From positions 150,724,001-150,788,000 of the forward strand of contig NC_086097.1 of assembly GCF_963921235.1 (NCBI RefSeq): 64,000 bases of DNA, given 5' to 3'. Made by a program: the position numbers and the translations under genes. The DNA comes from Mobula hypostoma (lineage: Eukaryota). Shown piece after piece: positions 945 to 54,430 of this stretch. The notes beneath the pieces were generated by a model that saw only the letters and a program-made list of their open reading frames with translations, did not search any database and had not been told where the DNA came from. The number at the start of each line of letters is the position of its first letter. Position 1 is the stretch's first letter.

Positions 945-2235
945 GAATCATAGAGTCATGAAAAGTAGGGCACAAAACAGACCTTTTGGCTCATCAAGTC
1001 CACACCGAACCATTTAAGCTGCCTAGTCCCATCGACCAGCATGCTGACAATGATCCTCCATACCCCTGCCATCCATGTACCTATCCAAACTTCTCTTAAA
1101 CACTGAAATTGAGCTTGCATGCACCATTTACGCTGGCAGCTTATCGACACTGTCATGACCCTCTGAGTGAAGTTTCCCTTCGTGTTCCCATTAAACATTT
1201 CACCTTTAACACATGATCTCTACTTGTAGTTCCACATCCTCAGTGGAAAAAGCCTGCTTGCGCTTACCTTATCTATACCCCCCCCCCCATAATTTTATAC
1301 CTCTATCAAATCTCCCCTCAATCTTCTACATTCCAAGGAATAAAATCTTAATCTAGTAAATCTTTGCTTATAACTTAGGTCCTTCAGTCCCAACAACATC
1401 CTTGTAAACAAGATTGAAGGAGTACATAGAAATCTTTCCTGTAGGTAGATGAACAAAAGCACACACAATACTCCAAATTAGACCTCACCAGTGTCTTATA
1501 CAACTTCAACATAGCATCTCATCTCCTGTATTCAATACTTTAATTTATGAAGGCCAATGTGCCGAAAACTTTCCTAACAACCCTACCTGCTTGGACCTGT
1601 TTTCCCAGATCCCTTTGTCCTACCACATTCCTCAGTGCCCTACCGTTCACTGTACAAGACCTACCCTGATTGATCCTACCAAAGTGCAAAACCTCGCACT
1701 TGTCCGTAATACATTCCACTTGCTATTTTACAGCCCATTTTACCAGCTGGTACAGATCTTGCTACAACCTTTAATAGTCTTCCTAGATGTCCACTACACC
1801 CCCAATCTGATGTCATCTGCAAATTTGTTGATCCAGTTACCCACATCGTCATCCACATCACTGATATAGATGATAAACAGCAACTCACCCAGCACCGATC
1901 TCTGTGCACTCCACTAGTCACAGGCCTCCCAAAGAGGCAAGCGTCTACTACTTACTCTCTAGATTCTCCCACAAAGTCAATGCTTAATCTAGTTTACTAC
2001 TTCATCTTGAATACCAAGCAACTGGACTTCCCTGACCAACCACCCAATTCCAAGTAGACAACATCCACCGCTTTGCATTCATCAACTTTCCTGGTAACTT
2101 CCTCAAAAAACTTATTCAGTTAGACAACCTACCATGGAAAAGCAATACTAACTCTCCCTAATCAGTCCCTATCAATCCAAATGCTCATATATCCAATCCC
2201 TTAGAATATCTTCCAATCATTTTCCCACTACTGTT
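945..2235 (-). mobile_element. CR1-type LINE, degenerate 3' portion (RT and 3' UTR)
   Basis: The minus strand reads as a frameshifted CR1 RT region (SGV.Q.SVLG / FADDIRLG-like). The 3' end lies near 950. Confidence 0.8.
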
Positions 2236-2485
2236 GTCAGGCCCTGGGGTTTTTATCCACCCTAATTTGCCCCAAGACAGCAAACACCTCCATGCCCTGA
2301 ACTCATCTGCCTTCCCTACTTGCATTGAAATATATGCAGCTCAGAACATTAGTTGTACTATGCTCAAACTTTTGATTCCTGACTTTGAGGCCTCAACCTC
2401 TCCTCTATCTCTTCTGCTACTCTGATTCCTAACCCCCTGCAACTCTAGTTTACCCCCTCCCCCCATGCAACACAAGCAAACCTTC

Positions 2486-3884
2486 CCAATAGGATATTAT
2501 CATCATGAAGTGTTTCGAGAGGCTTGTCATGAGGCACATCAAGACCCTGCTGCCCCCCTCACTGGACACCCTGCAGTTCGCGTACCGTCCCAACCGTTCA
2601 ACAGACGATGCCATTGCCATCACTCTCCAGCTGGCCCTAACCCACCTGGACAAAAAAGACACGTACGTTTGAATGCTGTTCGTAGACTTCAGTTCAGCAT
2701 TCAACACAATCATTCCTCAGAAACTGATTGGAAAGCTAAGCCTACTGGGCCTGAACACCTTCCTCTGCAACTGGATCCTCGGCTTCCTGATTGGGAGACC
2801 TGTCAGTCCGGATTGGAAGCAGCATCTCCAACACCATCACACTGAGCACGGGGGCTCCCCAGGGCTGTGTGCTCAGTCCACTGCTGTTCACTCTGCTGAC
2901 CCACGACTGTGCTGCAACACACAGCTCAAACCACATCATCAAGTTCACCGATGACACGACTGTGGTGGGTCTCATCAGCAAGAACGATGAGTCAGCATAC
3001 AGAGAGGAGGTGCAGCGGCTAATGAACTGGTGCAGAGCCAACAACCTGTCACTGAATGTGAACAAAACAAAAGAGATGGTTGTTGACTTCAGAAGGACAC
3101 AGAACGACCATTCTCCACTGAACATCGACGACTCCTCCATAGAGATCATTAAGAGCACCAAATTTCTTGGTGTTCACCTGGTGGAGAATCTCACCTGGTC
3201 CCTCAACACCAGCTCCATAGCAAAGAAAGCCCAGCAGTGTCTACTTTCTGCGAAGGCTGAGAAAAAATCCATCTCCCACCCCCATCCTCACCACATTCTA
3301 CAGAGGGTGTATTGAGAACATCCTGAGCAGCTGCATCATTGCCTGGTCCGGGAATTGCACCATCTCAGATAGCAAGAGCCTGCAGCGGATAGTGAGGGCA
3401 GCTGAGAAGATCATTGGGGTCTCTCTTCCCACCATTACAGACATTTACACCACATGCTGCATCCATAAAGCAAACAGCATTATAAAGGACCCCATGCACC
3501 CCTCATACAAACTCTTCTCCCTCCTGCCATCAAGCAAAAGGCACTGACGTATTCGGGCTCTCACGTTTAGACTATGTAACAATTTCTTCCCCCAAGTCAT
3601 CAGACTCCTCAATACCCAGAGCCTGGACTGACACCAACCTACTGCCCTCTACTGTGCCTATTGTCTTGTTTATTATTTATTGTAATGCCTGCACTGTTTT
3701 GTGTGCTTTATGCAGTCCTGGCTAGGTCTGTAGTCTAGTGTAGTTTTGTGTTGTTTTACATAGTTCAGTGTAGTTTTTGTATTGTTCATGTAGCACCATG
3801 GTCCTGAAAAACATTGTCTTGTTTTTACTGTGTACTGTACCAGCAATTATGGTTGAAATGATAATAAAAAGTGACTTGACTTGA
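2486..3884 (+). mobile_element. Rex1/Babar LINE, 5'-truncated, nested in a CR1 ORF1 remnant
   Basis: ORFs 2673-2954 ([14 protein letters not shown]) and 2791-3315 ([21 protein letters not shown]...[12 protein letters not shown]). It ends in AATAAAAA followed by a (GACTT) tail. Confidence 0.9.
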
Positions 3885-4020
3885 TCAGTCCCCCTTTGGT
3901 CAGTGCAGATTCTTTTGTACAGGTCCCACCTTCACTTGAAGAGAGCCTAGTGATCCAAAATCTGACACCTGCCCTCCTACACCAACTCCTTAACCACATG
4001 TTAAGCTGTATGATCTTTAC

Positions 4021-5160
4021 TGTATAAAGCACACGGTATTGGGGGTAAGGTATTGGTGTGGGGGAGAATTGGTTAGCAGACAGGAAGCAAAGAGTGGGAA
4101 TAAACGGGACCTTTTCAGAATGGCAGGCAGTGACGAGTGGGGTACCACAAGGCTCAGTGCTGGGACCCCAGTTGTTTACAATATATATTAATGACTTGGA
4201 TGAGGGAATTAAATGCAGCATCTCCAAGTTTGTGGATGACATGAAGCTGGGTGGCAGTGTTAGCTGTGAGGAGGATGCTAAGAGGATGCAGGGTGACTTG
4301 GGTAGGTTGGGTGAGTGGGCAAATTCATGGCAGATGCAATTTAATGTGGATAAATGTGAAGTTATCCACTTTGGTGGCAAAAATTAGGAAAACAGATTAT
4401 TATCTGAATGGTGGCCGATTAGGAAAAGGGGAGGTGCAACGAGACCTGGGTGTCGTTATACACCAGTCATTGAAAGTGGGCATGCAGGTACAGCAGGCGG
4501 TGAAAAAGGCGAATGGTATGCTGGCATTTATAGCGAGAGGATTCGAGTATAGGAGCAGGAGGTACTACTGCAGTTGTACAAGGCCTTGGTGAGACCACAC
4601 CTGGAGTATTGTGTGCAGTTTTGGTCCCCTAATCTGAGGAAAGACATCCTTGCCATAGAGGGAGTACAAAGAAGGTTCAGCAGATTGATTCCTGGGATGG
4701 CTGAACTTTCATATGAAGAAAGACTGGATGAACTGGGCTTGTACTCGTTGGAATTTAGAAGATTGAGGGGGGATCTGATTGAAACGTATAAGATCCTAAA
4801 GGGATTGGACAGGCTAGATGCAGGAAGGTTGTTCCCGATGTTGGGGAAGTCCAGAACGAGGGGCCACAGTTTGAGGATAGAGGGGAAGCCTTTTAGGACC
4901 AAGATTAGGAAAAACTTCTTCACACAGAGAGTGGTGAATCTGTGGAATTCTCTGCCACAGGAAACAGTTGAGGCCAGTTCATTAGCTATATTTAAGAGGG
5001 AGTTAGATATGGCCCTTGTGGCTACGGGGGTCAGGGGGTATGTAGGGAAGGCTGGGGCGGGGTTCTGAGTTGGATGATCAGCCATGATCATAATAAATGG
5101 TGGTGCAGGCTCGAAGGGCCGAATGGCCTACTCCTGCACCTATTTTCTATGTTTCTATCT
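4021..5160 (+). mobile_element. Young CR1 LINE 3' portion (RT C-terminal half and 3' UTR)
   Basis: ORFs 4058-4387 (SGVPQGSVLGPQLFTIYINDLD...KFVDD) and 4574-5068 (YKALVRPHLEYCVQFWSP...NFFTQRVVNLWNSLP), with a (TTTCTAT) tail. Confidence 0.95.
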
Positions 5161-5720
5161 TCTGATTTCTGGCCTCACTAGCAGGTGACATGGATGGTGA
5201 TACTGCGATCACAACCCTGGAGGTCCTGTCCTTTGACTTAGCACCTAGTTCTCTGAACTTACTTTGTAGAACCTTGTCACTCTTACTATCTATACCATTG
5301 CTACCTTCATGGACCACGACCTCTGGCTGCTCACCCTCCCACCAAAGAATGTTGAGGACTTGATCTGAGATGTCGTAGGCTCTGACACCCGGGAGGCAAC
5401 ATACCGTCCGGGAATCTTGTTCTCATCCACAGCACCTTTCTGTTCACCAAGGAATCCCGTATCACCACAGCTCACCTCTTCTGCCCCCTTCACTTCTGAG
5501 TCACAGAATCAGACTCAGTGCCAGAGACCTGACTGCTGTTTGTTTCTGTGGTTGAGGGGAATGGCCACAGGGGCTTCTCTGCACTGGCTGTTTAACTCCT
5601 TTCCCCTTCCTGACTATCACCACTCTCCTGTATCCTCCACCTTGGTGCAACTACCCCTGTATATGTTCTATCATGCCCTCAGTCTCAGGCGTTCACCTAA
5701 GTCCAGCTCTAACTCCTTAA
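5161..5720 (-). mobile_element. CR1 ORF1-region remnant, continuing 2260-2485 and 3885-4020
   Basis: Visibly similar to the 51286-52480 and 55900-56880 copies. Younger insertions interrupt it. Confidence 0.65.
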
Positions 5721-5879
5721 CAAGGAACATACTAAGGAAAAGAATTCTAAGGAGATGAACAAACCAGACAAGAGAAGCCATAAATAAATAAATAAAAGAA
5801 TGAGGAAACAGGAAAAGAAGCAAAGGTTAGCAGTAGAACAAAAGTCTGGAAGAAATTCAGAAACCAGCAAAGGAGATGT

Positions 5880-6250
5880 ACAAAGCAATGTACATTGACC
5901 TCATTCAAACCTATCAAATGCTGAAAGACCTTGATAGGATGGATATGGAGAGGATGTTTCCTATGGTAAGGGAGCCCAAGACCAGGATACAGCCTCAGAA
6001 TAGAGGGGTGTACTTTCAGAACAGAGAAGAGGAAGAATTCCTTCAGCCAGACTGGCAAATCTGTGGAATTCATTGTTACAGGTGGTTGTGAAGACCAAAT
6101 CATTGGGTATGTTTAAAAAGTCAGGCATGAAGGGATACAGGGAGAAGGAAGGAGATTGGGGCTGAGAGGGAAAATGGATCAAGCATTATGAAGTGGCAGT
6201 GCAGACTTGATGGGCCAAATGGTCTAATTCTGCTCCTTTATCTTATGGTC
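5880..6250 (+). mobile_element. CR1 3' end fragment
   Basis: ORF 5876-6091 (DLIQTYQMLKDLDRMDMERMFPMV) followed by a CR1-type 3' UTR. Confidence 0.8.
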
Positions 6251-7406
6251 TAATTGTAGGTCCCTTACAGGATGATGCTGGAAAATTATTAAAAGCAAAG
6301 AGATCACAAAGGAGTTAACTATATATTTAGCATTAATCTTTATAGTCAATGATTAGTGACACCATTAATATGAAAAAATACAAGGGAAGAATTAAATATT
6401 GTTATTAGAAAGTTAATATTAGATAAACTAGTAAGACTAAAGGCCCCCAGACTTGGTTTGCATTCTACAATCATGAAGAAAATGGCTGAAAAGATAGTGA
6501 ATGCTATTTCTTATGTGCGGCTCCTAGCACATAAGATGACATAACAATGCCTCTATTGTCTTAGAAATTTGCGCATATTCAGAATGTTACCTCCCACATC
6601 AGCAGGTTCAGGAACAGTTGTTGCCCTTCAAACAATCAGCTCCTGAACGAGCATGGATAATTTCTCTCACTTCAACAATGAACGGATTCCACAAGCAATA
6701 GTCTCACTTTCAATGAATTACAATTTATGGTTTCAGTATTACTTATGTATTTACTTTTGCTCAATTTGTCTCCTTTTGCACATTGCTTGTTTGTCACTCC
6801 ATGTACAGCTTTTCGTAAATGCTATTGTATTTATTTTGCTGTAAATGCTTACAAGAAAATGAATCTCAAAATAGTATGAGGTGACATATACATACATTTA
6901 TAATAAATATGCTTTGAACTTTGAATGCAGCAATTGTAATGTTCCGTAACTACTTAGAATCTACAGGTACAAGTGACTGGAAAACTGACATTTATTAAAA
7001 AATGTGTGGGGCGGGGGCAAAAATCCATCAGAGTGGTTAGTTTAACAACTATAATTGGAAAAATGTCACATGGTTTCATGAAGAAAAATAATGTCTAACA
7101 AATTGATTGGAATTCTTTGAGGAAGTATCAGCCAGAATGGATGGAGTGTCCACTATCTCAACTTTTCAATATCCAGTAGATTTCCCCTTTATCCTGCCGA
7201 ACTCTAACAAGTTCAGGGACAAATGCTCCATTTAGGTTAAGCTTTCATTCCAGTGAAGCACCTCTGGACCCTCTCCAGCACATCTTTCCATGGTTAAAAA
7301 TTGCTCACAATATTCCTAATGCAATCTAACCAACCTCTCAGCAGTATATCCTTACTCTATGTTTTAGTCTTGATTAAACGAACACTAACATTGAACATAG
7401 AGCATC

Positions 7407-7854
7407 CATTCAGTGGCCACTATTAGGTACACCTGCTTGTTAATGTAAATATCTAATCAGCCAATCGTGTAGTAGCAAATCAATGGCTAAAACACACAAC
7501 AGGCATGGTCAACAGATTTAGTTGTTGTTCAGACCAAATATCAGAATGGGGAAGAAGTGTGACCTAATTGACTTTGACTGTGGAGTGATTGTTGGTGCCA
7601 GACAGGGTGGTTTGAGCATCTCAGAAACTGCTGCTCTCCTGAGATTTCCACACACAAAAGATCACAGGAGAATGGCCAAAATGGTTCAAGCTACAGGAAG
7701 GCAACAGTAACTAAAATAACCATATGTTACAACAGTGCTATTTAGAAAAGCATCTTTGAGTGCACAATATACAAAACCTTGATGTGGAAGGGCTGCTGCA
7801 GCAGAAGACCACACCAGGTTCCACTCCGGTACCTAATAAAGTTCCCACTATGTG
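7407..7854 (+). mobile_element. Tc1-like DNA transposon, internally deleted
   Basis: Imperfect TIRs CATTCAGTGGCCACTATTAGGTAC...GTACCTAATAAAGTTCCCACTATGTG. The ORF MGKKCDLIDFDCGVIVGARQGGLSISETAALL resembles a Tc1 N-terminal HTH. Confidence 0.85.
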
Positions 7855-7859
7855 TACAT

Positions 7860-8480
7860 ACAACAATTACAGACCCTCTGGCCCAGAATCTTGTGCCAAT
7901 CTTTTAAACTACTCCAAGGTCAATCTAACACTTCTCTCCCACATAGCCCTCCATTTTTCTTTCATTCATGTGCCCATCTATGGAAGTATCTGCCTTTACC
8001 ACCACTCTAGGCGGTGCATTCTACATGCCAACCACTCTGTATGTATAAAAAAACTCTCAGACATCCCCCTATATTTTCCTCCAATCTCCTGAAAATTATG
8101 CCATCTCATTTCCACTCTAGGAAAAAGTCTCTGGCTGTCCACTCATCTATGCCTCTTTTCATCTTGTACATCTCTTATCAAGTTGCCCCTCATGGTCCTT
8201 CACTCCAAAGACAAAATCCCTAGCTCACTCAACCTATTCTTACAAGCTATGCTCACCAATTCAGGTAAAACTCCTCTGTGCCATTTCAAAAGTTTCCATA
8301 TTGTTCTTATAATGAGGCGACCAGAACGAACGACAATACACCAAGTGGTATCACCAACATTACCTCATGGCTCTTGAACTCAATCCTCCAACTAATGAAA
8401 ACCAACACCAATGAAAAACAACACAAGTGCCTTTTCAACCACTCTATCAACTTGCATGACAACTTTAAGGGATCTATTGG
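7860..8480 (-). mobile_element. Degenerate CR1 3' end
   Basis: The reverse complement resembles the CR1 RT C-terminus and UTR of other copies in the window. Confidence 0.65.
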
Positions 8481-8875
8481 CACAACTTCCAAGTTAATCT
8501 TGAGGGAATCCTGAACTACAACTTAAGACCATTTGCATGTCTGAATTACAAATTCCATACCCATTTAGAATATAATCTATGCCTTTATTCTTCCTAGCAA
8601 TGTGCATAACTTTACACTTCCCTACACTGTATTCCATTTGCCACTTATTTATCTATCCAAGTCCTTCACAATATTACCTGTCCCTCTATCTTGATATCAT
8701 CTGTAAATGTGGCCACAATGCCATCAGTTCGTTCATCCAGATCATTAATTATAAAGTGAAAAGTTGTCCTGAAATTGACCCATGCGGACTTCCAGTAGTT
8801 AACAGCAACTAGCAACCATCCTTAAAAAAGGCACCTTTGTGCTCCAGTCTTTACCAGAATCTGGTTCTTTACTCA

Positions 8876-9168
8876 GAACCAGAGGCCATAGTTTAAGAAT
8901 AAGGGGTAGGCCATTTAGAATGGAGTTGAGCAAAAACTTTTTCACCCAGAGAGTGGTGGATGCATAGTCTGCCCCAGAAGGCTGTGGAGGCCAAATCTCT
9001 AGATGCTTTCAAGAAAGAGATGGATAGAGCTCTTAAAGATAGCGGAATCAAAGGTTACGGGGATAAGGGAGGAACTAGATACTGATTGTGGATGATCAGC
9101 CATGATCACAGTGAATGGCGGTGCTGGCTCGAAGGGCCAAATGGCCTACTCCTGTACCTATTGTCTTT
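8876..9168 (+). mobile_element. Young CR1 3' end
   Basis: Its 3' part is near-identical to 42843-43017. It encodes NFFTQRVV and has a CTATTGT tail. Confidence 0.85.
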
Positions 9169-10179
9169 AGTTCTACCAGTCAACCAATGTTCTATCAATG
9201 CTAGTATCTTGTCTCCAATACTACGGGTTCTTACTTAGTTTAGCAATCTTGTGTATAAAAAGTCCTAGTAAACATCCACTGACTCCCCTGTTATCTAATC
9301 TGTTTGCCTCAGAATTTAACAGATTTGTCAGGGAAGATCTCCCCCTTAACAAAAACTGAGCTGACTTTGCCCCCTTTTATCATGTATTTCCAAGTACTTT
9401 GAAGCTTCATCCTTAATAAAGGACTTTACAATCTTACAGACCATTGAGGTCAGGCTAACTAGCCTATAATTCTTCCTTTCGCCTCTTTCATTTCTTAAAA
9501 ACCAGGCAACAAGAAAATACAAAACTCTCCATATTCTTGAACATGAAGTCTCAACTCTCTTTCCAAAGATGCTGCTTTTTGACAATATGGGTAGCGTGCA
9601 TCACTAAACATTGAATATTTTCTCTATTGCCATCAAAAGTTCAGTGGTGGAAAAGGGCAGCAGTTAAGTATCAACACAGGATTCTTCTATTTGTGTTCAT
9701 TACTCTCAGGGGGGTACTGAAAACAAAAACAGCATATATCACATTTTCCCTTCGTCCTTCATTGCCCTTTCAAATAGGAGAAATGAGCAAAAGAACTACC
9801 AGAAATTTAAAAAAAACTGTTGCCCATTCCCAAAGCATTATGGAAACAAATACCAGCAGATTGAATTCTATTATATCTTATCAAAAGTGTGTGTCTGTGT
9901 TTCTTATAGTTATTCAGAAGAAATCTGAAATATTTACAGGGGAGTGGATAAATGTGCTCTAAAGAGGCAAATGGCATTTAAACTTTTACCTTTCTATTAA
10001 AACAAAACAGCTGCAACTTTCCAATCCTCTGGCACCACCCACAAATCTATACATATTTGGAAGAACCAATTAGTTATTCTAAAACAACAGGAATTCTGCA
10101 GATGCTGGAAATTCAAGCAACATACATCAAAGTTGCTGGTGAACGCAGCAGGCCAAGCAGCATCTATAGGAAGAGGCGC

Positions 10180-10215
10180 AGTCGACGTTTCAGGCCGAGA
10201 CCCTTCGTCAGGACT
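10180..10215 (-). ncRNA. Minimal type I hammerhead ribozyme motif
   Basis: The minus strand reads AGTC-CTGACGA-AGGGTCTCGGCCT-GAAA-CGTC-GACT: stem I AGUC/GACU, CUGANGA core, stem II AGG/CCU, GAAA, GUC cleavage triplet. Confidence 0.85.
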
Positions 10216-10229
10216 CTCTTCCTTCAGTT

Positions 10230-10265
10230 AGTCCTGACGAAGGGTCTCGGCCTGAAACGTCGACT
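10230..10265 (+). ncRNA. Minimal type I hammerhead ribozyme motif
   Basis: Same sequence on the plus strand: CTGACGA at 10234-10240, GAAA at 10254-10257, predicted cleavage after C10261. Confidence 0.85.
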
Positions 10266-10904
10266 GCGCCTCTTCCTATAGATGCTGCTTGGCCTGCTGC
10301 GTTCACCAGCAACTTTGATGTATGTTAGTTATTCTAAAATTTACATAAAAGGTTTCCCCTCTTTGTGGCATCTGCAAGTTTAACAATGGCATAATTTATT
10401 GACTTCAAAGTGTTTTCCTTTTCATATAGAATGTTGATTACTGTAACAACCTGGGCGTGCCTATAGAGTTAGGAATGTTATAATTCACGTTAAAATTCTG
10501 GAAGTTTCCCATGTCTGGCCTCCCACTGCATATGCTGACATGCACCAGGATAACTCTTATCCTAAATCTTGAAGACAATGTCAACAACCAAAAGAAAAAC
10601 AGTATAATCATACCAGAACATGTTTATTTGTGCAATCCAACTGAATACAGGGGGGAAAAAAGACATTCAAGCTACTGCTTGCAACATACAGTACACAGTT
10701 TCATGTACTAGTCTGAAAGTTTACAGCACAACATAGATTAAATAATCAATGCATCATGCAGTAATAGAAAAAATATCCTATAGAAAATCTTCCAAATTTG
10801 TTATTTTTACAGTGAAATCAAAACAGAAATTGTTGAAAATATTCATGTAGTAATAATGCTTGCAGATAGAACAGGTTAATACTTCAGGCATAGAACTTCT
10901 CTAA

Positions 10905-12331: not shown

Positions 12332-12562
12332 GCAGCACACACAAAATGCTGGAGGAACTCAACAAGCCAGGGAGTGTCTATGGAAGAGTGTAAACAGCTG
12401 ATGTTTCAGGCAGAGACGCTTCATCACAGCAGTCATCAGTCCTGATGAAGGTTCTCACCCTAAAATGTCAACTATTTACTCTTCCATAGATGTTGCCTGA
12501 GCTGCTGTCCCTCCAGCATTTTGTGTGTGTTGATTTGGATTTCCAGTATCTGCAGGTTTTCT
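12332..12562. mobile_element. Older Penelope-like pLTR fold-back copy with a decayed hammerhead
   Basis: Imperfect inverted arms around about 12430. AGTC-CTGATGA-AGGTTCTCACCCT-AAAA-TGTC-AACT at 12438-12473 has GAAA mutated. Confidence 0.8.
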
Positions 12563-14234
12563 CGGGTTTGAGATACCGTATTTCACTACCTCCTTACTGC
12601 ACAGGAGACCATTTTGGCTCCGAGAGCAATCCCATTCTAATATATTTTTCCCTGTACTCTAATCTCTCCATATTCCCATTAAATCCCCCAGATTCTACGA
12701 CTCATCTACACACCAAGGGCAATTTATAGTAACCAATTAACTAACACCTCACAGATCTTTCGGATGGGGAGGGGAACTGGAACAGTCCCGCCCAATCTTG
12801 GAATGTGCAAACGACAGAAAGGTCAAGAATGGACCTGGATCACACAAGTTGTGAGACAGCATCTAATTGGAACATCTTGAGAAACCGGAAGAGAACTCAC
12901 TTGATGGTATATACTGCAGAATAACAACTTGCATTATGTTGCACCCTTAATGAAGTACAACATTCAAGCTTTCATTTCATAAAAGCTGGGATGTTAACAA
13001 AAAATCCTACTTTCTGACTCTTCACTTTGTATTTATTAAATAACCAATAGCAACATAATCTGCTCCATTACCAGGAATTAGCAACTATATAAAAAGTTAG
13101 AAGCACAAATTTTGCAACAAACAAAATTCAAACTAAGATTTTGAGAGGAGGAGGAAAACATACCTGTAGATCGATTCAGACCAAAGCACAATTATGTAGG
13201 AGAGTTCCACATCCAAACTCAAATGTAACATTAAAATCATGGAAGTTGAACCCTGACAGTTGTATTTTAATATTGTTGCTTCCCTTCGTCCAGCCTTCAC
13301 TGTTTTACCTCATGATGGCAAATGAGGAGCAGAAACATTGGGTAGGCTAGAGGCCCTTCTTGAATGCCAGGAATAAAATGCTCACAGAATAAGGATTGCA
13401 AAAGGATTTTCTCTTCCACATGACAACATCTAACTAAAAGAAATTCAACTCATCAGTGGCAATCAGTTATATTAACATAAACCAATTTTAAACCAGGGAC
13501 CATTAAAAAGAGTAAAATTTGGTAGTCAGCAAGGTGATATAAATTGTAATCAGACAGTGACAAATGACTGTCTCTCATTAGAAATATTAACCAATAACAA
13601 ACAAATCTCAGGAAATCCAATACTTTCAGCTGAGTCTGTCGTGCAAACTATATTGCTTGCTTCTATATTCCATAAGAAGCCCAAGTTCCTGTCAGTCACA
13701 TACACAGGAATGCCTGCTCAGGACACATTCCCGACATCTCCAGAGCAATTCATTTATTTAATACCACTATAAGTTTAATCCATGTTAACTGATCAGTGCC
13801 ACTAGAAATCAAGTTTTAAGAATGTTGAATTTTTTCGTGAATTTTCAGAAACCATATGTTCAAGGCCAAATACAGAAATCCAGAAGTCAACATTCTGAGG
13901 GTCATGATATATTATTTACATTCCTGTTATTTCCAGGAACTTCCATCTCCCTATCCAGAACACAGTTGGAAATATGTGCATGAGGAATTCCATTAACTCA
14001 ATAAGTTTTATTTTTGTTTTAAAAAAATGTATATTATTGTGTTACTACACACAATACAGGCTCAAAACAATTGAACAGCCAATGTTAACTCTTGTTTGGG
14101 TAGAAAGGTGAAAGAATGAAAAAGTGTTGTACAAGATCTTCTCAGTGGCAATACACTGCATTATTGCTCTTAATTCTGTAAAAAAAAAGTTTTAGAAATG
14201 CAATGTTTTCCAATTACAATACCCAGTGCTGCAA

Positions 14235-24360: not shown

Positions 24361-25673
24361 CACCCTATCCCTGTTATATGTGAGGGATACGTTCCTCGCA
24401 GTCGACGCATAGTATGGAAAACGCATTACGTGAATAATTATTTAAATGGAGAAAATAGGGATGCATTCTGGAGGGCTTCCTATCTGTAATTTATTCACAT
24501 TTTCATACCAATATGATACAAAAGCAGTACCACAAGGCAACATTTGTATTACATTTCATCAATTTAAGGTAATATTCAACATAATAAATCATAGAAGGTT
24601 AACATACTAGGGTGTACAGTACTCACCAACAGCAGCAGGTCTGTTGGCTCCAGGAGATGAGTGGTTGTGCAGTGATGTTGGGGAGCTTTACATGGATGAG
24701 GTGGATGGTTGTGGGTCATCAGGATCATCAAGGACAGCAAGGGGTGAAGGAAGACTCACAGAACTCTCTGGCAAGTTAGTGGAACTCTCAGAACTGATGC
24801 CCAACTCAGCTATCATAGCCGGCAACTGAACAGGGTAGCATCCAGCAGCTTCGTGGTCAGCACTAGCCTGCTCACCACGCACAGCTAAGTTGTGAAGCCT
24901 CTGGCGATTAACAAAAATTAGAAAACCATCCCCTACTTGCATTAAAGTTAACAGTATCACTTGACACTTCCTCACTAGCCTCTGAACAAAGGTGACCATA
25001 AATTTCCAAAGCTTTCACATGAAGATGATCGGCACTGAGTTTTGTTTTTTCCTTTGTTTCATGCTCAATGTACAAGCTCAACATTTTCCTCATTTTTGTC
25101 ATAATCAGGTGATGCACTTTGGTAACAATCTTTGAAGACACTTGAGATGAATCAATCACTGCACTTTATTTTCTCAGCATTCTTCTTTATGTTCCTGATC
25201 GTGGACTTACCCAGGCCGAAGTAGCATCCCAGAGCTGTGTTACCTTCACCTGACGCGGCCCTGTTTATAATTTCCAGCTCTTTTTCAAGTGTTAAAGCGG
25301 TTCTCTGCCACTTAGGTGATGGCCCAGGACTTGACATAGGATGCTTAGGAGGCATGGTTAAATATTTCAAGCACAAAATCACTGCGCTGTAGGTAATAAC
25401 AACAAAAGGTTAAGAGTGCAAGATCGCACATCCACACGCTGCCACCACCAATACGAGACTGGCGGGAATGAGACTGTGAGGCGGCGTGCGTGGCTTGCTT
25501 TGGCGGGAAAACGGTCCCACACAATACTGGTTGGCCAACAGCCTCGCAGACTCCACCGCACTCGCATGCATAACTAAGAGTTTTGGACGTATTTAAGGAG
25601 AAGTTGGTAGAAATAGATTCAACGCACAACTGTGAAAACGCATTGTTTGAAGACACATAACGGGGATAGGGTG
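24361..25673 (-). mobile_element. pogo/Tigger DNA transposon, internally deleted
   Basis: 21-bp TIRs CACCCTATCCC(T/C)GTTAT(A/G)TGT flanked by TA. ORFs 25152-25382 (RTALTLEKELEII...GKSTIRNIKKN) and 24908-25159 (FNASRGWFSNF) are CENP-B-type HTH domains. No DDE domain is seen. Confidence 0.92.
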
Positions 25674-27197: not shown

Positions 27198-27324
27198 ACA
27201 AAATAATCTGCAGATGCTGGGGTCAAAGCAACACTCACAACATGCTGGAGGAACTCAGCAGGTCGGGCAGCATCCTGGAAAAGATTGGTCGACGTTTCAG
27301 GCCGGAACCCTTCGTGTTGTGAGT
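27198..27324 (-). mobile_element. Penelope-like pLTR fragment with a short inversion
   Basis: CTGCAGATGCTGG...GTCGACGTTTCAGGCCGGAACCCTTCG, then TGTTGTGAGT, the inverse of ACTCACAACA. Confidence 0.75.
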
Positions 27325-29551
27325 ACAGCAGCATATGTTGGATGAATTACTCTGTTGGTAACCATTAGGAACCAACAATACAGTTTTATAGTACTTTATT
27401 AGCATTGATAGTATACTAATTTGTTCTGTATTTCATTTAAATACATAATTGTTACTCAGTTAAATATGCCTCCAACTGCCCCGAGACCTCATCCTTAATG
27501 ATCGACTCCAATCTCTTCCTAACTGCTGACATAAGACTAACTAGCCTATAATTTTCTTTCTTCTGCCTCTCTCCCAATTGTCCCAATTTAATGGACTTCA
27601 TTGTACTTGTTGTTTCTTTAAAAAGGAGTGTTCAAGTATGCCCTTTATCAAATTTCTACTCTCTTCTTTCCGTATTTTTATTCTATTGCTTAACTTCTAT
27701 ATTTTATTAGTTACCCAGCAAAAGACGAAGGTGAAGACCACAAAACTCCATTACTGATATTGGGCATTTCATCTGTTCAATGGCTTTAGGTCATTCTATT
27801 GAGTTCGCTTTTATACTTTTAATTTAAAAAAAGTCTATTCCCAACAACGATAAAATCTCAAGCGTTAAACATTGACTTCTAGCAAGCTTTGCATAGAATT
27901 TTTTCTTAAATCATTCACAAGATGCAGACGATTTCTGGTACGGTCAACATTTATTGTCCAGTTTCTGAAGTGGTGCCATTTGCTGTGGAGCTGAAATAAC
28001 CTGTACTATTACATGCAGTTTCAGAATTTTCTTCCAACAATGATATAGGAACTGTGACATATTTCCAAATCAAAACAGAAATGTGTCTGGAAGATGTTAT
28101 GTTTGCCCCGAAGCTTGCTATCCTCATCTTTTTAGGTGTGAGAGATTACTAACTTGCCAGATATTGTCAAGGAATCCTTGGCAATTTGCTGCAATGCATC
28201 TTGCAGAATTGAAGGATTTTAAATCTATGCCAGACGTCCATAAATAGTCAACTTAACGATGTCACCTGGACAATATTAACTTCAAAGATTTGCAAACCAC
28301 AAGTGACAGGGTTAAGTAAATGAAGGGTGCTATAATCTTTTAAGCAAAAATGTAGGTAATGGTTATTAGATAGGTATTATCAATTGCAGTAAAAAATCTA
28401 AAACTTATTTGTAAAAGCACCACTGTTAAGGTTTTACTATGTAATTTGGCTGTCAAACTCTGATTTTCTGGACCTCAACCATGACTCCTGCCACATAACT
28501 AAGCCACAACCTTGAAATCCCAGCTCACATTCTGGACTAATGAACGAGCCAGATGTTGAACCAACAGCATTTCTAAACAACTGAATGCTGGATTATTGAA
28601 GTTTTTCCAGTATGTTATAATGGTTGGACAGGTTCAACTAATCTTATGCTATTTATATAAACATATTATGTTAAGGTATTGGATTCTGTATTTTTCCCCA
28701 ATATGATAGGATCCTAAACAGATGGGTAAATAACAAAATGACAATGAAATGTTTTTGTACATTTAATGCTGTAGCAGAATTTCAAACAAATTTCTAAGTG
28801 TTTCACTCTTGCACCAATCACATGATTGATATTTTAATGACATCATTGCAAGCTCTAATTGACTCTTAATCAGCAGTTTTAATCACTCCTACAAGAATCT
28901 TCATTAACATTGTTGGAAGAAATTCCAATATAAAACAAGTCCATCTATTATCTTTGTACCCAAGCGTGACCACACTTTAACCAATCACCATTAACACTAG
29001 ACATCTGGTATACCTGTCCTAAACATAGATGATACTCCAGATTATACCCCAACAGGTCCATATTAAATTCTGACACCCCAATCATCAACTGATTATCACC
29101 TCAAAATGTCCACCCACTAGTGTTTAACTCCCACCTCAGCTTCTGATCAGCAGTTGACACACTACCTCCCATTCTCCCATGGCCATTTTCACTAGTTATG
29201 TTGATTCTGGAGGTCAAAGTGCACCAGTATTCCAACCAGAGGTGGTAATAGATTTTCTATTCTGAGAAGTGTAATATAAAAGAAAATGCAAGTCCAGTCC
29301 CAAGGCCTTGTCATTACCCAATATTACAACAATGGGTTAATAAAATTACATACCATTTCCTAGGAAACCATTTTGATCTTGTTCATAATGTTGCAAAAAC
29401 ATCTAAAGCACTTTTAAGTCAATATAAAAACCAAATCCAAGCCCAACGGAAACTATACTATAATTAGCTATTTTATGCAATACATATTAGCACAAATGCC
29501 ATGACCATTCAAGTGTTCATCATTTCAAGAGTTAACCTGTTAAAACTTCCA

Positions 29552-29769
29552 AACAACAGGAATTCTGCAGATGCTGGAAATTCAAGCAACATACACCAAA
29601 GTTGCTGGTGAACGCAGCAGGCCAAGCAGCATCTATAGGAAGAGGCGCAGTCGACGTTTCAGACCGAGACCCTTCGGACGAAGGGTCTCGGCCTGAAACG
29701 TCGACTGCGCCTCTTCCTATAGATGCTGCTTGGCCTGCTGCGTTCACCAGCAACTTTGATGTATGTTGT
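29552..29769. mobile_element. Penelope-like pLTR fold-back insertion
   Basis: 90-nt arms 29587-29676 and 29679-29768 (2 mismatches, 2-nt spacer). TSD CTGTTAAAACTTCCA at 29537-29551 and 29770-29784. Confidence 0.9.
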
Positions 29770-32700
29770 CTGTTAAAACTTCCATCAGCTTACATGCTCC
29801 TTTCCTGTATCCAAAGCTCATTGTTACTACATATAGCAACTTCTCCAGAACAGAATTTATTACTGCAATGCTAAATTTTATGTCCTTAAAAACAGTGGCG
29901 CTTTTCACTGTGACAATGGCAGGCAGAGCTTGCTTGCACATATTAAGGTCTTAGTTACTCTCAGTTGCTACATTTAGCAAGCCGTGCCACTCCTGAAACA
30001 AACACTATTTGAATTTTGTTGTGGGAGATGACTAGGCCTTTAAGCAAAATGATTCAGGGATGTGCTCAAACCTTCCTTGAAGATGTGCAATATCCCCACT
30101 GACCTCTGGCTCATGGCTGCTCAAAGTGAATTTGTAGTATTTGGAATGGTATTGAGAATATTCTAAGAACATTCATTGTACATACTCAAGAATTGTAACT
30201 TTCTCCTGTAAATTAGTAAGAGAATCAAAATCATATGGTACAGAAACATGCAATTTGCCCCACCATATTCACACCAACAATCAAACATCCATTTACCACC
30301 CTACCCATGTTCCCATCAAGTACCCCTAGATCCTGCCAGTTATCCACTTACTAGAGACAATTTACAGTGGCTAATTAACTTACCAACCCATATCTTTAGG
30401 ATATGGAGGAAACCACAGCACCCAGAGGAAATCTATGATCACCGGAAAAAAAAACATACATACTCCACATGAACATCAAAGGTAATAATTGCTTGGATCA
30501 CTAGCACAGTGAGACAGCAGCTCTTTGAATCACACCACTAAGATGCCCAAAACTATCCACATACAACGTGTAATACAGTGAAATGCTAAAGCAAAGTCTG
30601 GATGGAAATAAAATACATAACAGGAAGGCACTTCTTGGCATTTTCAAAATCTTTATTTGATAGTAAATTCAAATAAAGGTTTCCTCACAAGTAGTGAACT
30701 CCTAGTGTTCCATTTCTTCAAAATATTACAAATAATCATGACTGTTTGAAAGCTAGGCATGTAACTGTTTCTGAGCCATATCTGTCTTTCCAAGAGAGTT
30801 TTTAGGGCAGAGTCAGTTTATCTACTTAATGAAAATGTACATTTGCTGAATTTCAATTAGACTAATCTCAAAACACACAGTAGAAATCCCCAGAGAGGGT
30901 TTCTTGGGCCTTCGATGATCCTTCAATAAGTCTTTAACACCAACTGAACAGTCATTACAATGTGTAGCAATAGTTATTCCAACAAAGTAGTGATGGCCTT
31001 TTGTTGTTGCTCACACAAAGGAACAGTACTACAGCAGAATGTGGGCACAGCCTATGAAGTTTTTACTAGTCATTATTCCATGAGCCACAATTTTATCATC
31101 TCAGTGGCCCAACTATTTCATACATTTCCCTTTTCAAGCAATGACTTCATGAACCTTTCAACTAAGGTATAGATAAGACCTGGAACAATGACAGAGCAAA
31201 CAGAAAATATTTTCTTGGGTAATGACTATTTTGTATTTATTATGAAAATAAACATGATTAAAGTGTATTTGACTCCACTAACAATCATCATAGTTTACAC
31301 CATTCTACTAGCATACAAACTGCAATCATCCTCACAGATTTAATCAACTTCAGAATTCCACTAAGCTTCAACAAATAACTCAATAAACAGGAATAAATAT
31401 ACTCATTGAAGCACAAACAAATAGAGCATTATAGCTGTAACAAGAGTCTTTTTCTATAGCAGGTTCTCTCAAACAGCACAATGGTCTTTAAAAAGTAGGA
31501 TACATTTAAATTCAAGTTTTCTAATGAATTTATGATGGCAATCCAAATGGGTAACACACACATTTTGTGAACCTGCTTGTGAAACTGTAAGCACAGATGC
31601 AGGAAACAAAGACCCTAGTTAGTTTTCCAACACTGGAGGGGAGATGTCTTATCTTTATCGGTATGCTGCAAAAAAAAGTATACTTGTCTGGCATTTCCTT
31701 CTGACCCCACCCTACACTAAACTGGAAGTTGAATCTGTAGTGAACAAAACACAATCAAAAGAACCATAATATGGAAGAGAGTCATACAGCCAGGCACATC
31801 TCCATGTGGACGATTTCATCAGTCCCATTTCCCGACTCGTTTCCTACAGCCCTGGAATTTGTTCTAAAGTTCTATTGAATCTCTTTAATTTGTTGACTCC
31901 ATTTCCACTGCTCTAACAGATAGCAGATATTGTACCACATCATCATTCTCACATTCTCTTTGCATCATTTAACTTGTTTCCCTGTTCCTTGAACCATCAG
32001 CCAGTGGAACAGCTTCACTCTTCCCTCTGTTGGCTAAATTTGTAGTCACAATCTTTTATATCACATCCAATTAAATATTTGATACTACTTCATCTTAGCT
32101 GTCCCACTTCATCCCATCCAATTTGCCCATCTTCAATTTCTACTTTAGATTTCTCACTTACTTTCCTTCCCCCCCCCAACCAAACCTCATCAACTGATGA
32201 CTACTACTGCTCAAGTGCATTTTCTACCCCCACATACATGTGGTTAATTTAACCCACCACAGGCCTGAAAATAAGATCCAACAAAGCCTCCATTTTCATA
32301 CTGATCAAGAAAGTCCGCCTTAAGTCATTTTCCTCTAAAATTATTCCAATTAACATAGGGTAACTGAAATTACCCAATATCACTACTCCTTAGCTCTGGC
32401 ATTTTCAATAAATTTACTCATCTCTACTTTTCCCATTACTTGATGCCTTATAGAATATACATAGCTTGACAGCTTCATTCTAACATTTCAAGAATTTACC
32501 ACGTTCAGCAGTACAACATCCTCCTTGATTAGTATCACCACCCTTATCACTCCTTCCCTACCTTCTGTAAAAGCCTTGTGACAAATTAAATGCTCAGTTA
32601 TATCTTTTGACTTGTATAATTCCACTAAGCCTATGCATTTGTAACTCAACTTTATTCACTATACTGCACATATATAAACACATGCAATCTATTTTCACAT

Positions 32701-35593: not shown

Positions 35594-37142
35594 CAGTGGT
35601 CCCCAACCACTGGGCCGCAAAGCATGTGCTACCGGGCCGCGAGGAAACATTATTATTTGGCGGTATGAAGCGATATGAGTCAGCTGTACCTTTCCTCATT
35701 CCCTGTCATGTCCACTGCTGAACTTGAACGTACGCGAGGTCATCAGTCAGTATGAGTAAAAAACAAATGTCGCTCGAGTGTTTCTTTGGAAGAGGTGGAA
35801 GGGGACATAAAAGGCCTAATGATTGATGGTAACGCAGAGAGCTGAGGCAGAGACTGCGAAAAAAAAGCTTCCTTCAACAGAAAATATGACAAGTCGTACA
35901 TAAAATATGGCTTTATTGCAACCGTTAACTCGCACCCTCCAAGCCCCGTGTGTGATATGTGGAGACAAGCTGTCTAATGAGGCAATGAAGCCCTCAAAAC
36001 TGCTTCGGCAACTTGAGTCAAAGCACCCTGCACTTAAAGACAAACCTGTTGAGTTTTTTGAGGGGGAAAAAACATGAGCAAGCGGGACAGAAGCAAGTGC
36101 TGAGATCAACCACCTCCACAAATGCTGCTGCTCGAGAGCGTCGTACTTAGTGGCTATCTGTGTGACATCTTCAACATGCTCAATGAACTCAGTTTGTCAC
36201 TTCAGGGGAGAATGACAACTGCCTTCAAGTTGGCAGATAGTGTCTGCTTTCAAAGCCAAACTGGAACTGTGGGGACGACGAGTGGACAGGGGCATTTTGA
36301 CTTGTTCCCAATATTAACTGGGATTTTGGGAGAGACTGAGGCTGCACCGTCTTTCTCACAGCTGGTGCGCGATCACCTAACTTCGTTATCGGCAGAATTT
36401 GAGTGTTACTTCCCAACCGCAAATGACCCAGGACGTGCAAAGGAATGGTTCCGTGACCCATTTGTGAATGTCCCCGGTGAATCATCCATGTCAGTGCAGG
36501 AAGAAGATCAACTCGTCGAGCTTGCAAATGACCGTGGGCTGAAAAGTATGTTTGACATAACATCTCTGCCGGCATTCTGGATCAAAGTCAAGGCTGAATA
36601 TCCTGAGATAGCCACAAAAGCACTGAAAACGTTGCTTCCATTTCCAACATCATATCTCTGCGATAATCTCTGTGAATGCAACGAAAACTAAACTGCGGAA
36701 TAGATTGGACATAAGGAACCCCTTTAGAGTATCGCTGTCTCCCATCACCCTCGATGAGACCAGCTTGCTGCAGGGAAACAAGCCCAGGGCTCCCACTGAT
36801 TCACCGATATTGGTGTGTTGCAATGATTTTATATGTTCATACGAGGAAAATATGCGCTGTGTCTCTAATATCCAAACGTTACTTAAAATGTTATAATGCT
36901 TATAATTGACTTATCACTATATTCATGGGAGGAAAATAGGCACTGTGTGTTTAATATTAAATTCGTTAGATAAACCCTTTCAGAAACAAAATTGCGTGTA
37001 TTATTAGCCACTTATAAGTAACTTATAGTTTCACTATATTCCTGTCGTAATTAACACCCCCCCCACCCCCCAGTCAGCCGGTCCGCAAGAATATTGTCAA
37101 TATTAAACCAGTCCGCGGTGCAAAAATGGTTGGGGACCCCTG
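35594..37142 (+). mobile_element. hAT (Charlie/Buster-type) transposon, internally deleted
   Basis: TIRs CAGTGGTCCCCAACC / GGTTGGGGACCCCTG; TSD ACACAAGA/CCACAAGA. A BED finger (CVICGDKLSNEAMKPSKLLRQLESKHP) is joined to the C-terminal dimerisation domain (FWIKVKAEYPEIATKALKTLLPFPTSYLC). Confidence 0.95.
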
Positions 37143-38640: not shown

Positions 38641-38998
38641 GATCTTAAGTGCCACTAGTACGTAAAGGTTAGGAGGTATATAAAAATACATGCACCAGAA
38701 ACAAAACAATGTCCTTGTCAGGAGAATGCAATTACGCAAGAGGTTTGCAAGATAACATGATAAAATAGTCATGATAAAAGTGACTTATGATTTGAGTTAC
38801 ACACAGCTACTTATGTGCTAGGCATGAGACAATTTCATGATGTACATATAACTCACCCTAAAGATGCAGCATCGCACATAATAGCTCCATTTTTACCTCC
38901 AATGCTCTTAATACAAAGGCCAATGATTGGAAACTAAAGAGACAGACAAGGTTATTTAGAGTTCAGATGTTTTGGGAATCAAAAGAAAGTGGAATTCA

Positions 38999-39126
38999 AG
39001 CAACACACATAAAAGTTGCTGGTGAACGCAGCAGGCCAGGCAGCATCTCTAGGAAGAGGTGCAGTCGAAGTTTCAGGCCGAGACCCTTCGTCAGGACTAA
39101 CTGAAGGAAGAGTGAGTAAGGGATTT
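38999..39126 (-). mobile_element. Penelope-like pLTR fragment with a hammerhead variant (39063-39098)
   Basis: TSD GAAAGTGGAATTCA at 38985-38998 and 39127-39140. The minus strand reads AGTC-CTGACGA-AGGGTCTCGGCCT-GAAA-CTTC-GACT. Confidence 0.85.
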
Positions 39127-39507
39127 GAAAGTGGAATTCATGCAGGAATGCAATGCTGAGGTAAGAAGTCAGCCAGGATCGTAATGAATGGTAAAGCTAG
39201 GGCAAGATACTTAATGGTCTATTCCGGCTTCTGTTTCTCATATTCTTTTAGAAAACATTTAACATTTGTCCAAAATGAGTTGAGGAAAAAATATACTCCA
39301 AAAAATTAGTTCCATTGTACTCATAAGCTAATGCAAAAGAACAATTTGATCTAATAACTCATTACAATGAATACAAACCCAAATTCTTCTGGTTGGCACA
39401 GAAAACAGAAGCAAAAAATTAATGCATTTTAAGACTTGTTGCACAACATTTGTTCTGATAAGAACACAATCTTAAAAAAAAGGAAAAATCACAAATAAGA
39501 GAAAAAT

Positions 39508-39616
39508 CGGCAGATTATGGAAATCCGAGCAACACACACAAAACACCGGAGGAACTCAGCAGGCCAGGCAACATCGATGAAAAAAAAAGTACAGTTGATG
39601 ATTTGGGCCGAAACTG
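39508..39616 (-). mobile_element. Decayed Penelope-like pLTR fragment
   Basis: GCAACACACACAAAACACCGGAGGAACTCAGCAGGCCAGGCA matches the other copies. Confidence 0.7.
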
Positions 39617-52818: not shown

Positions 52819-52943
52819 CGAAGCAACACACACAAAATGCTGGAGGAACTCAGCAGGCCAGGCAGCATCTATGGAAAAGAGTAAACAGTTGATGTTTCGG
52901 GCTGAGGCTTTGGATCTGCAGCATCTGCAGATTTTCTTGTGTA
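52819..52943. mobile_element. Penelope-like pLTR fragment with an internal inversion
   Basis: TSD TATAATTCAATA at 52807-52818 and 52944-52955. Orientation switches at about 52900. Confidence 0.8.
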
Positions 52944-53465: not shown

Positions 53466-53705
53466 TCCATGATGAGGCCACCATCAGGGTGGGGGAGCGA
53501 CACCTTCTAATCAGTCTGCGTATCCTCTATTCTGATGGAATGAATATCGATTTCTCCTATTAAAAAGAAGTTCCCTCATCAACTTTCTTCTTCTATTCCC
53601 CATTCTGGCCTCTTACCTGCCTATCATCTCCCCCTAATGTCCCTGCTTTTTTCCTTTCTCCCATGGTCCACCCTCCTCTCCTATCTTTTCTTTTTACCAG
53701 GGCTT
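53466..53705 (+). mobile_element. Penelope-like endonuclease C-terminal remnant
   Basis: HDEATIRVGERHLLISLRILYSDGMNIDFS followed by a pyrimidine-rich UTR. Confidence 0.75.
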
Positions 53706-54430
53706 CTTCCTTGCCACTCTTTCTGTAAATACCTTTTATGTGCAAGGCCTTAGAGATTGTGAAGCCACGAACTTCATCTCCATTTGCAGCCACTGACCGC
53801 AGCAGCTCACTCAGAGTGACTGTTGGGGTCACAGTACCCTCTCTTACAAGTGCTGTTCTTCTCTGGTGACTAAGTTTAGAGGGGAGGACTGATCTGGGCA
53901 GTGTGGCTGTGGTTTCAGATTTTTTTCCTCTTTTTCATGGTGGATTGTATTGAGCATGTTGGGTGCCTTTGCAATGGTCTTGTACCCTTCCCCAGATTTG
54001 TGCTTCTCTTTTGTCATTTCCCTGGCTTGTCTTGAATGCTCTTTCGTCTTCATTTTGGTTTGGTCTATTGAAAATCTACCGTAGTGTTGAACCTTACAGA
54101 GGAGAAGGGGGTATTTGTTTTTATGAATTCATTCAAAACAGATGCAACATATTGAGTGAGTTGGTAAGGTAATACCATATATTGCACCTAAGGAAAGTTA
54201 GCATAGTAATTACAAAGGGGATGAATATTTTTCCAATCTCAGAATTTTGGTTTTTAAGTTTTAATAAATTGTTGACAGGTTTTGGAATTTTTTTTTCTTT
54301 TGATTTGACATGATGCACAATGTTTTGTAGATTAGCTAAAAAATTCCTACTTCAATATATTTTAAATTTAGAAAATGAGACAGTAAACTGTACAAATAGC
54401 TGCAGGGGCTGAATACTTTTTCAAGGTATC
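53706..54430 (-). mobile_element. Tc1-like transposon 5' remnant
   Basis: ORF MKTKEHSRQAREMTKEKHKSGEGYKTIAKA. Confidence 0.85.

What the first reader, a model, noticed from the sequence alone, without database searches (positions are those of the whole stretch)
10180..10265. Two intact minimal hammerhead ribozymes on opposite strands of one small insertion
Seen: each strand carries AGUC-CUGACGA-AGG(GUCUCGG)CCU-GAAA-CGUC-GACU, which has all conserved core nucleotides, a 4-bp stem I, a 3-bp stem II and helix III reduced to palindromic ACGU. Known: Penelope-like elements carry such minimal type I hammerheads in their pLTRs, thought to cleave as dimers through the palindrome. Inference: any transcript crossing this site in either direction contains one ribozyme plus its exact antisense, a built-in competition between self-cleavage and hairpin formation.
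Basis: partly seen in the sequence, partly recalled or inferred. Interest (0 to 1): 0.85.

Follow-up and report, generated by a model that had tools for sequence, protein, structure and literature searches.

The report
Fold-back Penelope stump carrying two hammerheads
The two mirror-image hammerhead motifs are real, but they are the two cut-short ends of an abundant Penelope-like jumping gene joined head to head, a pattern already described, and the perfect hairpin they form is predicted to keep both ribozymes from folding.

Summary
Observation confirmed: the same 36-nt minimal hammerhead lies at 10230-10265 (+) and 10215-10180 (-). It sits in a 240-bp insertion (10085-10324, 15-bp target duplication) made of two 5'-truncated ends of a young Penelope-like element (RT + GIY-YIG, Neptune-type linker), joined head to head, with the 34-nt tail on one arm. 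Both arms match a near-full-length copy with no difference. The genome holds 32,886 exact copies of the motif, 1,039 pairs 0-30 nt apart, and 2,426 pairs (one subtype) joined inside or below the ribozyme. Junctions differ from copy to copy, so keeping both hammerheads whole is incidental. The proposed competition fails in folding models: the antisense arm is transcribed first in both directions and the hairpin wins by about 71 kcal/mol. Opposite-strand pairs and inverted-plus-tail insertions are published, and this scan noted the family before in this and other genomes. Residual interest: 61 of 62 pairs have exactly one tail and either arm may be longer, which favours two cDNAs primed from both target ends. 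Arm ends pile up at the ribozyme's 5' edge (6.5-fold), not at its cut site. Cleavage and transcription are untested.

The parts
10070..10084 (+). Left target-site duplication, 15 bp; its last 3 A also match the tail end
   Evidence: exact 15-bp direct repeat
10085..10118 (-). 34-nt PLE 'tail', on this arm only; with 10119-10123 it reads as the first 13 codons of the parent ORF (ATG at 10123-10121)
   Evidence: (ORF of L299 begins MLLEFPASAEFLL)
10119..10215 (-). Left arm: pLTR 3' part, positions -31 to +65 relative to C17; with the tail, 0 differences in 131 nt from the upstream pLTR of L299
10180..10215 (-). Minimal type I hammerhead motif, predicted cut between 10184 and 10183
   Evidence: numbering from the sequence
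10216..10229 (+). 14-nt loop = parent pLTR positions -45 to -32, belonging to the right arm; blunt head-to-head junction at 10215/10216; holds a pyrimidine tract + CAG and an initiator-like TCAGTT (10224-10229; consensus recalled)
10229..10266 (+). Minimal type I hammerhead motif with 5-bp stem I, G10.1-U11.1 stem II, ACGU in place of helix III; predicted cut after C10261
10216..10326 (+). Right arm: pLTR positions -45 to +65, no tail; 0 differences in 111 nt from L299
10325..10339 (+). Right target-site duplication, 15 bp; first TT shared with the arm end

Best explanation
This is a very short, recent insertion of an abundant Penelope-like retroelement, made of two 5'-truncated copies of its hammerhead-bearing end joined head to head, likely built during integration, and its RNA is predicted to form a hairpin that keeps both hammerheads inactive. 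Shown: identity to the parent pLTR, 15-bp target duplication, tail on one arm, copy numbers, copy-specific junctions. Inferred mechanism: the element's RT-endonuclease nicks both target strands about 14 nt apart; each 3' end primes a cDNA, one at the outer start (about +101, with tail) and one at the inner start (about +65); both cDNAs usually come from the same source copy, often stop near the ribozyme's 5' edge, and are joined by their 3' ends (blunt, 1-3 nt microhomology or a few added bases) and filled in. The paired ribozymes are a by-product with no likely function at this locus.
For: Parent: 3,512-bp unit, direct pLTRs each with the identical 36-mer, open 1,043-aa frame with RT (YIDD, DKG) and C-terminal GIY-YIG. 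Counts: 32,886 exact motifs, 1,039 close pairs, 2,426 pairs joined within 60 nt between downstream anchors in one subtype; inverted pairs also seen with arms of hundreds of bases to >1 kb. Exactly one tail in 61 of 62 pairs and 48 of 49. Tail arm longer in 24, short arm in 32, equal in 5; 15/21/12. TSD 12-16 bp in 48 of 62. 39 different loops in 49 loci; the same loop recurs on different haplotypes and in both orientations. Arms of one insertion agree at six subfamily-diagnostic columns in 40-45 of 45 loci against 18-38 expected. In vitro, the anole PLE protein cuts and extends both strands, starts RT at two sites bounding the tail and is predicted to be a dimer (PMC11167929). Folding.
Against: Two-ended priming is inferred from genome patterns only. 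High arm concordance needs one template or one active source per event, which needs strand displacement that nobody has shown. 4 locus-private variants sit on both arms (against 18 on one arm; 41 of 49 loci), which also fits one arm copying the other or later gene conversion. Pfam RT and GIY-YIG scores of the parent are below the curated cut-offs. No empty-site allele was seen; it was not tested.
Confidence: 0.78

Rival explanations
1. Same element, but the inverted arm comes from self-priming: one cDNA (or an antisense RNA, as proposed in PMC3846280) folds back and copies itself.
For: Arms of one insertion share haplotype; 4 private variants on both arms; 1-3 nt microhomology at 18 of 49 junctions.
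Against: A fold-back of the tail-bearing strand cannot make the tail-less arm reach further upstream, yet it does in 21 of 48 and 32 of 61 pairs; a fold-back of the tail-less strand cannot add the tail. It would need extra steps.
Confidence: 0.15
2. The 240-bp hairpin is a non-autonomous family (MITE- or SINE-like) that is transcribed and retrotransposed as a unit.
For: Many near-identical 240-bp copies; some loops recur, such as one 10-nt loop in 5 of 49 loci.
Against: 39 loops in 49 loci; recurring loops sit at microhomologies, on different haplotypes and in either orientation to the tail; continuous range of arm lengths; the window copy's arms equal an autonomous copy base for base.
Confidence: 0.04
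3. One reading: a transcript across the site holds a ribozyme and its antisense that compete, giving a cleavage switch.
For: Both cores are intact. A transcript starting inside the loop, at the initiator-like 10224-10229, would carry one ribozyme without its complement.
Against: Antisense arm is made first in both directions; 71 kcal/mol gap; stem pair probabilities 0 in nascent folds. The lone monomer prefers an inactive fold pairing G5-G8 with 15.2-17 (-11.0 vs -7.0). Published min-HHR monomers did not cleave and dimers were weak (PMC4209133); the anole one needed its protein (PMC11167929). G10.1-C11.1 is absent.
Confidence: 0.02
4. Hammerhead cleavage of the element RNA creates the template 5' ends, so the short arms record ribozyme activity in vivo.
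For: Arm ends cluster around the ribozyme.
Against: At the cut site (-2 to +4) 3 of 101 arms end against 2.8 expected, and 0 of 18 TSD-flanked solo arms at risk; the cluster lies 24-45 nt upstream. Neither arm here starts at the cut site.
Confidence: 0.01

Closest known systems
Minimal hammerheads (min-HHR) of metazoan Penelope-like elements, Cervera and De la Pena 2014 (PMC4209133; read parts 1-2 of 4: abstract, results, discussion; supplements not opened)
   Same: Type I core, 4-5 bp helix I, unpaired base after A9, palindromic 15.2-16.2, location in pLTRs, thousands of dispersed copies. The paper already reports dual min-HHRs about 100-700 bp apart on opposite strands in Schistosoma.
   Different: Here the pair is 14 nt apart, helix II is short (4 bp), the dominant variant has G10.1-U11.1 (32,886 vs 4,891 exact copies with C11.1), and the exact-match count is above the 2,000-9,000 they report per genome.
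Canonical EN+ PLE insertions with inverted 5'-truncated copy and one-sided 30-40 bp tail (PMC8557442 passages; PMC3846280 passages; PMC2377424 passages)
   Same: Head-to-head inverted copy, tail on one end, TSD, tail coding for the first ORF residues, partial tandems.
   Different: The insertion is reduced to about 100 nt per arm with no ORF; TSDs are 12-16 bp against 8-10 bp in Adineta.
Poseidon of Anolis carolinensis (PAc), Frangieh et al. 2024 (PMC11167929; read parts 1-2 of 4, the main text and start of methods)
   Same: Two RT start sites bounding the tail downstream of the hammerhead; both target strands cut and extended; cleavage not needed for insertion.
   Different: The parent here has a CX4CxxC linker (Neptune/Nematis type, absent in Penelope/Poseidon per PMC8557442); its ORF starts downstream of the ribozyme, not inside stem II.
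Non-LTR retrozymes (bioRxiv 10.64898/2026.07.22.740005; read part 1 of 5 and passages; supplements closed)
   Same: Non-coding, PLE pLTR-related, type I hammerhead.
   Different: Retrozymes are direct tandem repeats that allow dimeric cleavage; this is an inverted pair flanked by a TSD.

Membership tests
PLE minimal hammerhead (min-HHR) | Conserved core CUGANGA, GAAA, UH | tested here: met
   both strands
PLE minimal hammerhead (min-HHR) | Helix I of 4-5 bp and a helix II | tested here: met
PLE minimal hammerhead (min-HHR) | Palindromic 15.2-16.2, no true helix III | tested here: met
   A-C-G-U at 10257-10260, read from the sequence
PLE minimal hammerhead (min-HHR) | Unpaired base between 9 and 10.1 (recurrent trait, not in the published descriptor) | tested here: met
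   lower-energy parse; C11.1 variant and sister family pair G10.1-C11.1 in this register
PLE minimal hammerhead (min-HHR) | G10.1-C11.1 pair (recurrent trait, not in the published descriptor) | tested here: not met
   U at 11.1 (10253) in both arms; the C form exists at 4,891 places
PLE minimal hammerhead (min-HHR) | Located in a PLE pLTR | tested here: met
PLE minimal hammerhead (min-HHR) | Self-cleavage as dimer or with protein | not testable with these tools
   needs bench assay
Rfam hammerhead families | Covariance-model match | tested here: not met
   no hammerhead family at E<=10
EN+ Penelope-like element | Single ORF, RT plus C-terminal GIY-YIG with CCHH (parent) | tested here: met
   L301 frame; Pfam RVT_1 E 2e-5 and GIY-YIG E 0.002, both below cut-off; 943 relatives at E<=1e-20, most of the 120 listed with RVT_1 and some with GIY-YIG
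EN+ Penelope-like element | pLTRs from partial tandems | tested here: met
EN+ Penelope-like element | Inverted 5'-truncated copy, tail on one end, TSD | tested here: met
Neptune/Nematis clade | CX2-5CxxC linker between RT and EN | tested here: met
   CKRNKCYTC in L301; definition from PMC8557442
Neptune/Nematis clade | RT phylogeny | not tested
Non-LTR retrozyme | Direct tandem units each with a hammerhead | tested here: not met
   inverted pair, single insertion
MITE / non-autonomous unit | Conserved internal junction shared by copies | tested here: not met
   39 loops in 49 loci
miRNA precursor | Rfam gathering score | tested here: not met
   32-45 bits vs 61-200; generic hairpin matches

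The most novel reading that the evidence does not exclude
These mini fold-backs are a direct record of how Penelope-like elements integrate: a dimeric RT-endonuclease makes two cDNAs from the two RT start sites of one RNA, one from each target strand, both halting at a fixed barrier at the hammerhead's 5' edge (the transcript's 5' end, a splice-acceptor-bound complex or a local hairpin), and then joins them. The ribozyme would act as a landmark for the protein, not as a cutter.
Probability: 0.35. Interest if true: 0.55.

Novelty: new member of a known kind. Interest (0 to 1): 0.2.

Why it matters
As a single locus it is ordinary: one of about a thousand like it, of a published kind. The family matters modestly. 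How PLEs make inverted arms and the one-sided tail is called undefined in PMC8557442, and tens of thousands of young copies give counts that separate two-ended priming from fold-back. They also show that the predicted cut site leaves no mark on insertion ends. About a thousand near-perfect 100-bp hairpins could be a source of double-stranded RNA if transcribed (inference, untested).

Tried and rejected
Rfam scans found no hammerhead model. PDB sequence search of the parent ORF: no match at E<=0.01. Host gene: 87 of 103 frames of 85 aa or more were scanned with Pfam; only transposon-type or weak hits came back, so no host gene was identified, and short exons would be missed. Expression: no RNA holder listed; the four runs laid were contigs, which cannot show starts, ends or cleavage. 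Spliced-template idea for the breakpoint cluster: solo arms ending at -35 to -30 share no upstream sequence by eye and are flanked by TSDs, so no exon 1 is seen. Transcript-start idea: only partly holds, since just 3 of 21 at-risk copies that keep the ORF 5' end begin in the zone. Arm-length correlation within pairs was not significant (rho 0.30, p 0.15, 24 pairs). A junction pattern for the ORF start found only 5 places and was replaced by a DNA search. One search mislocated the cut-site offset and the junction columns. Literature searches listed no paper on hammerheads or fold-back PLE stumps in cartilaginous fishes or on a breakpoint cluster at the ribozyme's 5' edge; the library lacks most subscription journals and Repbase, and supplements were not read. 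Two passages read for G10.1-C11.1 name the pair but give no rate effect.

Full report
Observation. A relaxed descriptor finds 3 hits in the window against a mean of 0.18 in 50 shuffles. The two hits are one sequence seen twice: they lie in 97-bp arms that are 100% complementary, 14 nt apart. The insertion runs 10085-10324 between exact 15-bp direct repeats. No Rfam hammerhead model matches here or in a single-arm copy; the published min-HHRs were found with a custom descriptor (PMC4209133).

Ribozyme anatomy. The genome has 32,886 exact copies with U11.1 and 4,891 with C11.1, and a sister family keeps C11.1 with a different loop. So the dominant form lacks the G10.1-C11.1 pair that PMC4209133 calls highly conserved. 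That this lowers cleavage is recalled, not shown by a call. The monomer's lowest-energy fold pairs the core with 15.2-17 and is not a hammerhead (-11.0).

Parent element. Following the arm upstream gave a 3,512-bp unit with direct pLTRs, each with the identical 36-mer, around an open 1,043-aa frame (L301). [quoted passage not shown] Pfam RT and GIY-YIG hits are below cut-off; 943 relatives were found, the top named ones from a shark at 68-72% identity. The linker marks Neptune or Nematis (PMC8557442); no tree was built. A cartilaginous-fish host is inferred from this, not given. The window's arms differ from the upstream pLTR of L299 at 0 of 111 and 0 of 131 bases, the loop is simply parent positions -45 to -32, and the tail codes for the first ORF residues. 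The insertion is therefore a very young copy of the element's end, twice.

How common. There are 1,039 places with two ribozyme 5' halves head to head 0-30 nt apart. In the first 50 listed, one dropped as a segmental duplicate, both arms carry an exact motif in 26 of 49 and there are 39 different loops: 18 with 1-3 nt microhomology, 6 blunt (this one included) and 25 with added bases. For one subtype alone, 2,426 places are joined within 60 nt between anchors downstream of the cut site, too close for two whole ribozymes. The window's own copy at 29554-29768 is of that kind. Longer inverted pairs reach over 1 kb per arm. Two whole hammerheads are thus a chance outcome of where the arms stopped.

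How the inversion forms. Leaving out the 27 pairs among L001-L030, which were chosen for likeness to this copy, 61 of 62 pairs have the tail on exactly one arm and 48 of 62 have a 12-16 bp duplication. The tail arm reaches further upstream in 24, the tail-less arm in 32, and 5 are equal (15/21/12, an overlapping set). Simple fold-back predicts that the tail arm is never the shorter one. The two arms of one insertion agree at six subfamily-diagnostic columns in 40-45 of 45 comparable loci (of 50) against 18-38 expected. I infer two cDNAs, one primed from each target strand at the two RT start sites, usually from the same source, then joined end to end. This matches the anole PLE in vitro: both strands cut and extended, two start sites bounding the tail, predicted dimer (PMC11167929). 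Against it: 4 private variants lie on both arms versus 18 on one (41 of 49 loci, 8 divergent or gapped ones dropped), and PMC3846280 proposes self-priming on an antisense template.

Where arms stop. I sampled arms by a downstream anchor (67,900 places): 82 of the first 88 listed on contig C1, plus 19 neighbours without the exact anchor, 101 arms in all. The 6 left out lie in loci fetched earlier; five are long and one ends at -32. 37 of 77 arms at risk end between -45 and -24, 6.5 times the rate further downstream (p 1e-12); at the cut site 3 end against 2.8 expected. The cluster holds for TSD-flanked solo arms (10 of 17; 0 of 18 at the cut site) and, by eye, for tail and tail-less arms alike, so it looks tied to a template position. 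Candidates are the transcript 5' end (initiator-like TCAGTT, consensus recalled), the pyrimidine tract + AG that abuts helix I here and in a sister family (the D. virilis intron ends at helix I, PMC4209133), or a local hairpin. Against a plain 5' end, only 3 of 21 at-risk copies that keep the ORF start begin in this zone (27 distinct copies from 35 loci, 6 duplicates and 2 without an upstream match left out; Fisher p 0.006). This is unresolved. End positions come from BLAST alignments of one region of one contig.

Head-to-head order means that RNA polymerase meets the antisense arm first in either direction. The full RNA folds to -214.2 kcal/mol; forcing the + hammerhead gives -143.3. In nascent RNAs the ribozyme bases are paired to the upstream arm with probability 1.0 from the first length that includes them, and stems I and II have probability 0. 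Only a transcript starting in the loop would free one ribozyme, and published min-HHR monomers do not cleave alone (PMC4209133; PMC11167929). These are model results; no transcript is known for the locus.

Comparison and verdict. Opposite-strand min-HHR pairs (PMC4209133) and inverted-plus-tail insertions (PMC8557442, PMC3846280, PMC2377424) are in print. This scan holds 81 notes matching 'Penelope hammerhead' in this genome and similar reports from other genomes. One of them reports the same 5'-edge cluster; I saw it after my own test. New member of a known kind; interest 0.2. The supplements of PMC4209133 (alignments of vertebrate motifs), which I did not open, may already list this family.

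Noticed in passing
window 29537-29784: Second fold-back of the same subfamily with a 15-bp TSD; its junction falls inside the CUGA core, so neither hammerhead is whole.
   Followed up: yes
window 38985-39140: Solo arm on the minus strand with a 14-bp direct repeat at its ends; hammerhead core intact but the ACGU palindrome is changed to ACUU.
   Followed up: partly
window 12332-12570, 27207-27315, 39504-39610, 52821-52915: Older, 70-78% identical relatives; the first is a decayed fold-back, and the others also end in or near the ribozyme region.
   Followed up: partly
G000-wide; L119-L148, L169-L208: 5' ends of arms cluster at -45 to -24 (ribozyme 5' edge), not at the cut site; cause unresolved.
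   Followed up: partly
L061 5300-5325 (-); L076, L084, L113: A pyrimidine tract ending in AG abuts helix I in this family and in a divergent sister family, like the D. virilis intron end; no spliced copy was seen.
   Followed up: partly
L299 1235-1290 vs L301: The youngest subtype has ATG where others have GTG at the start of the tail-encoded frame, 27 codons before the next Met.
   Followed up: no
G000:C58:11270000-11295000 (L275-L279, L312): Five near-full-length copies with the same 5' end spaced 4.6-5.1 kb apart, a tandem array.
   Followed up: no
L244 and L257 (C1:111302597, 111312810): Same fold-back with an identical 25-nt loop 10 kb apart, treated as a segmental duplicate.
   Followed up: no
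window 2791-3544, 4553-5065, 24911-25409, 36104-36688, 53596-54128: Fragments of other transposons: LINE-type RT, Tc5/CENP-B-type and Tc1-type transposase pieces; 4553 and 36104 judged by eye only.
   Followed up: no
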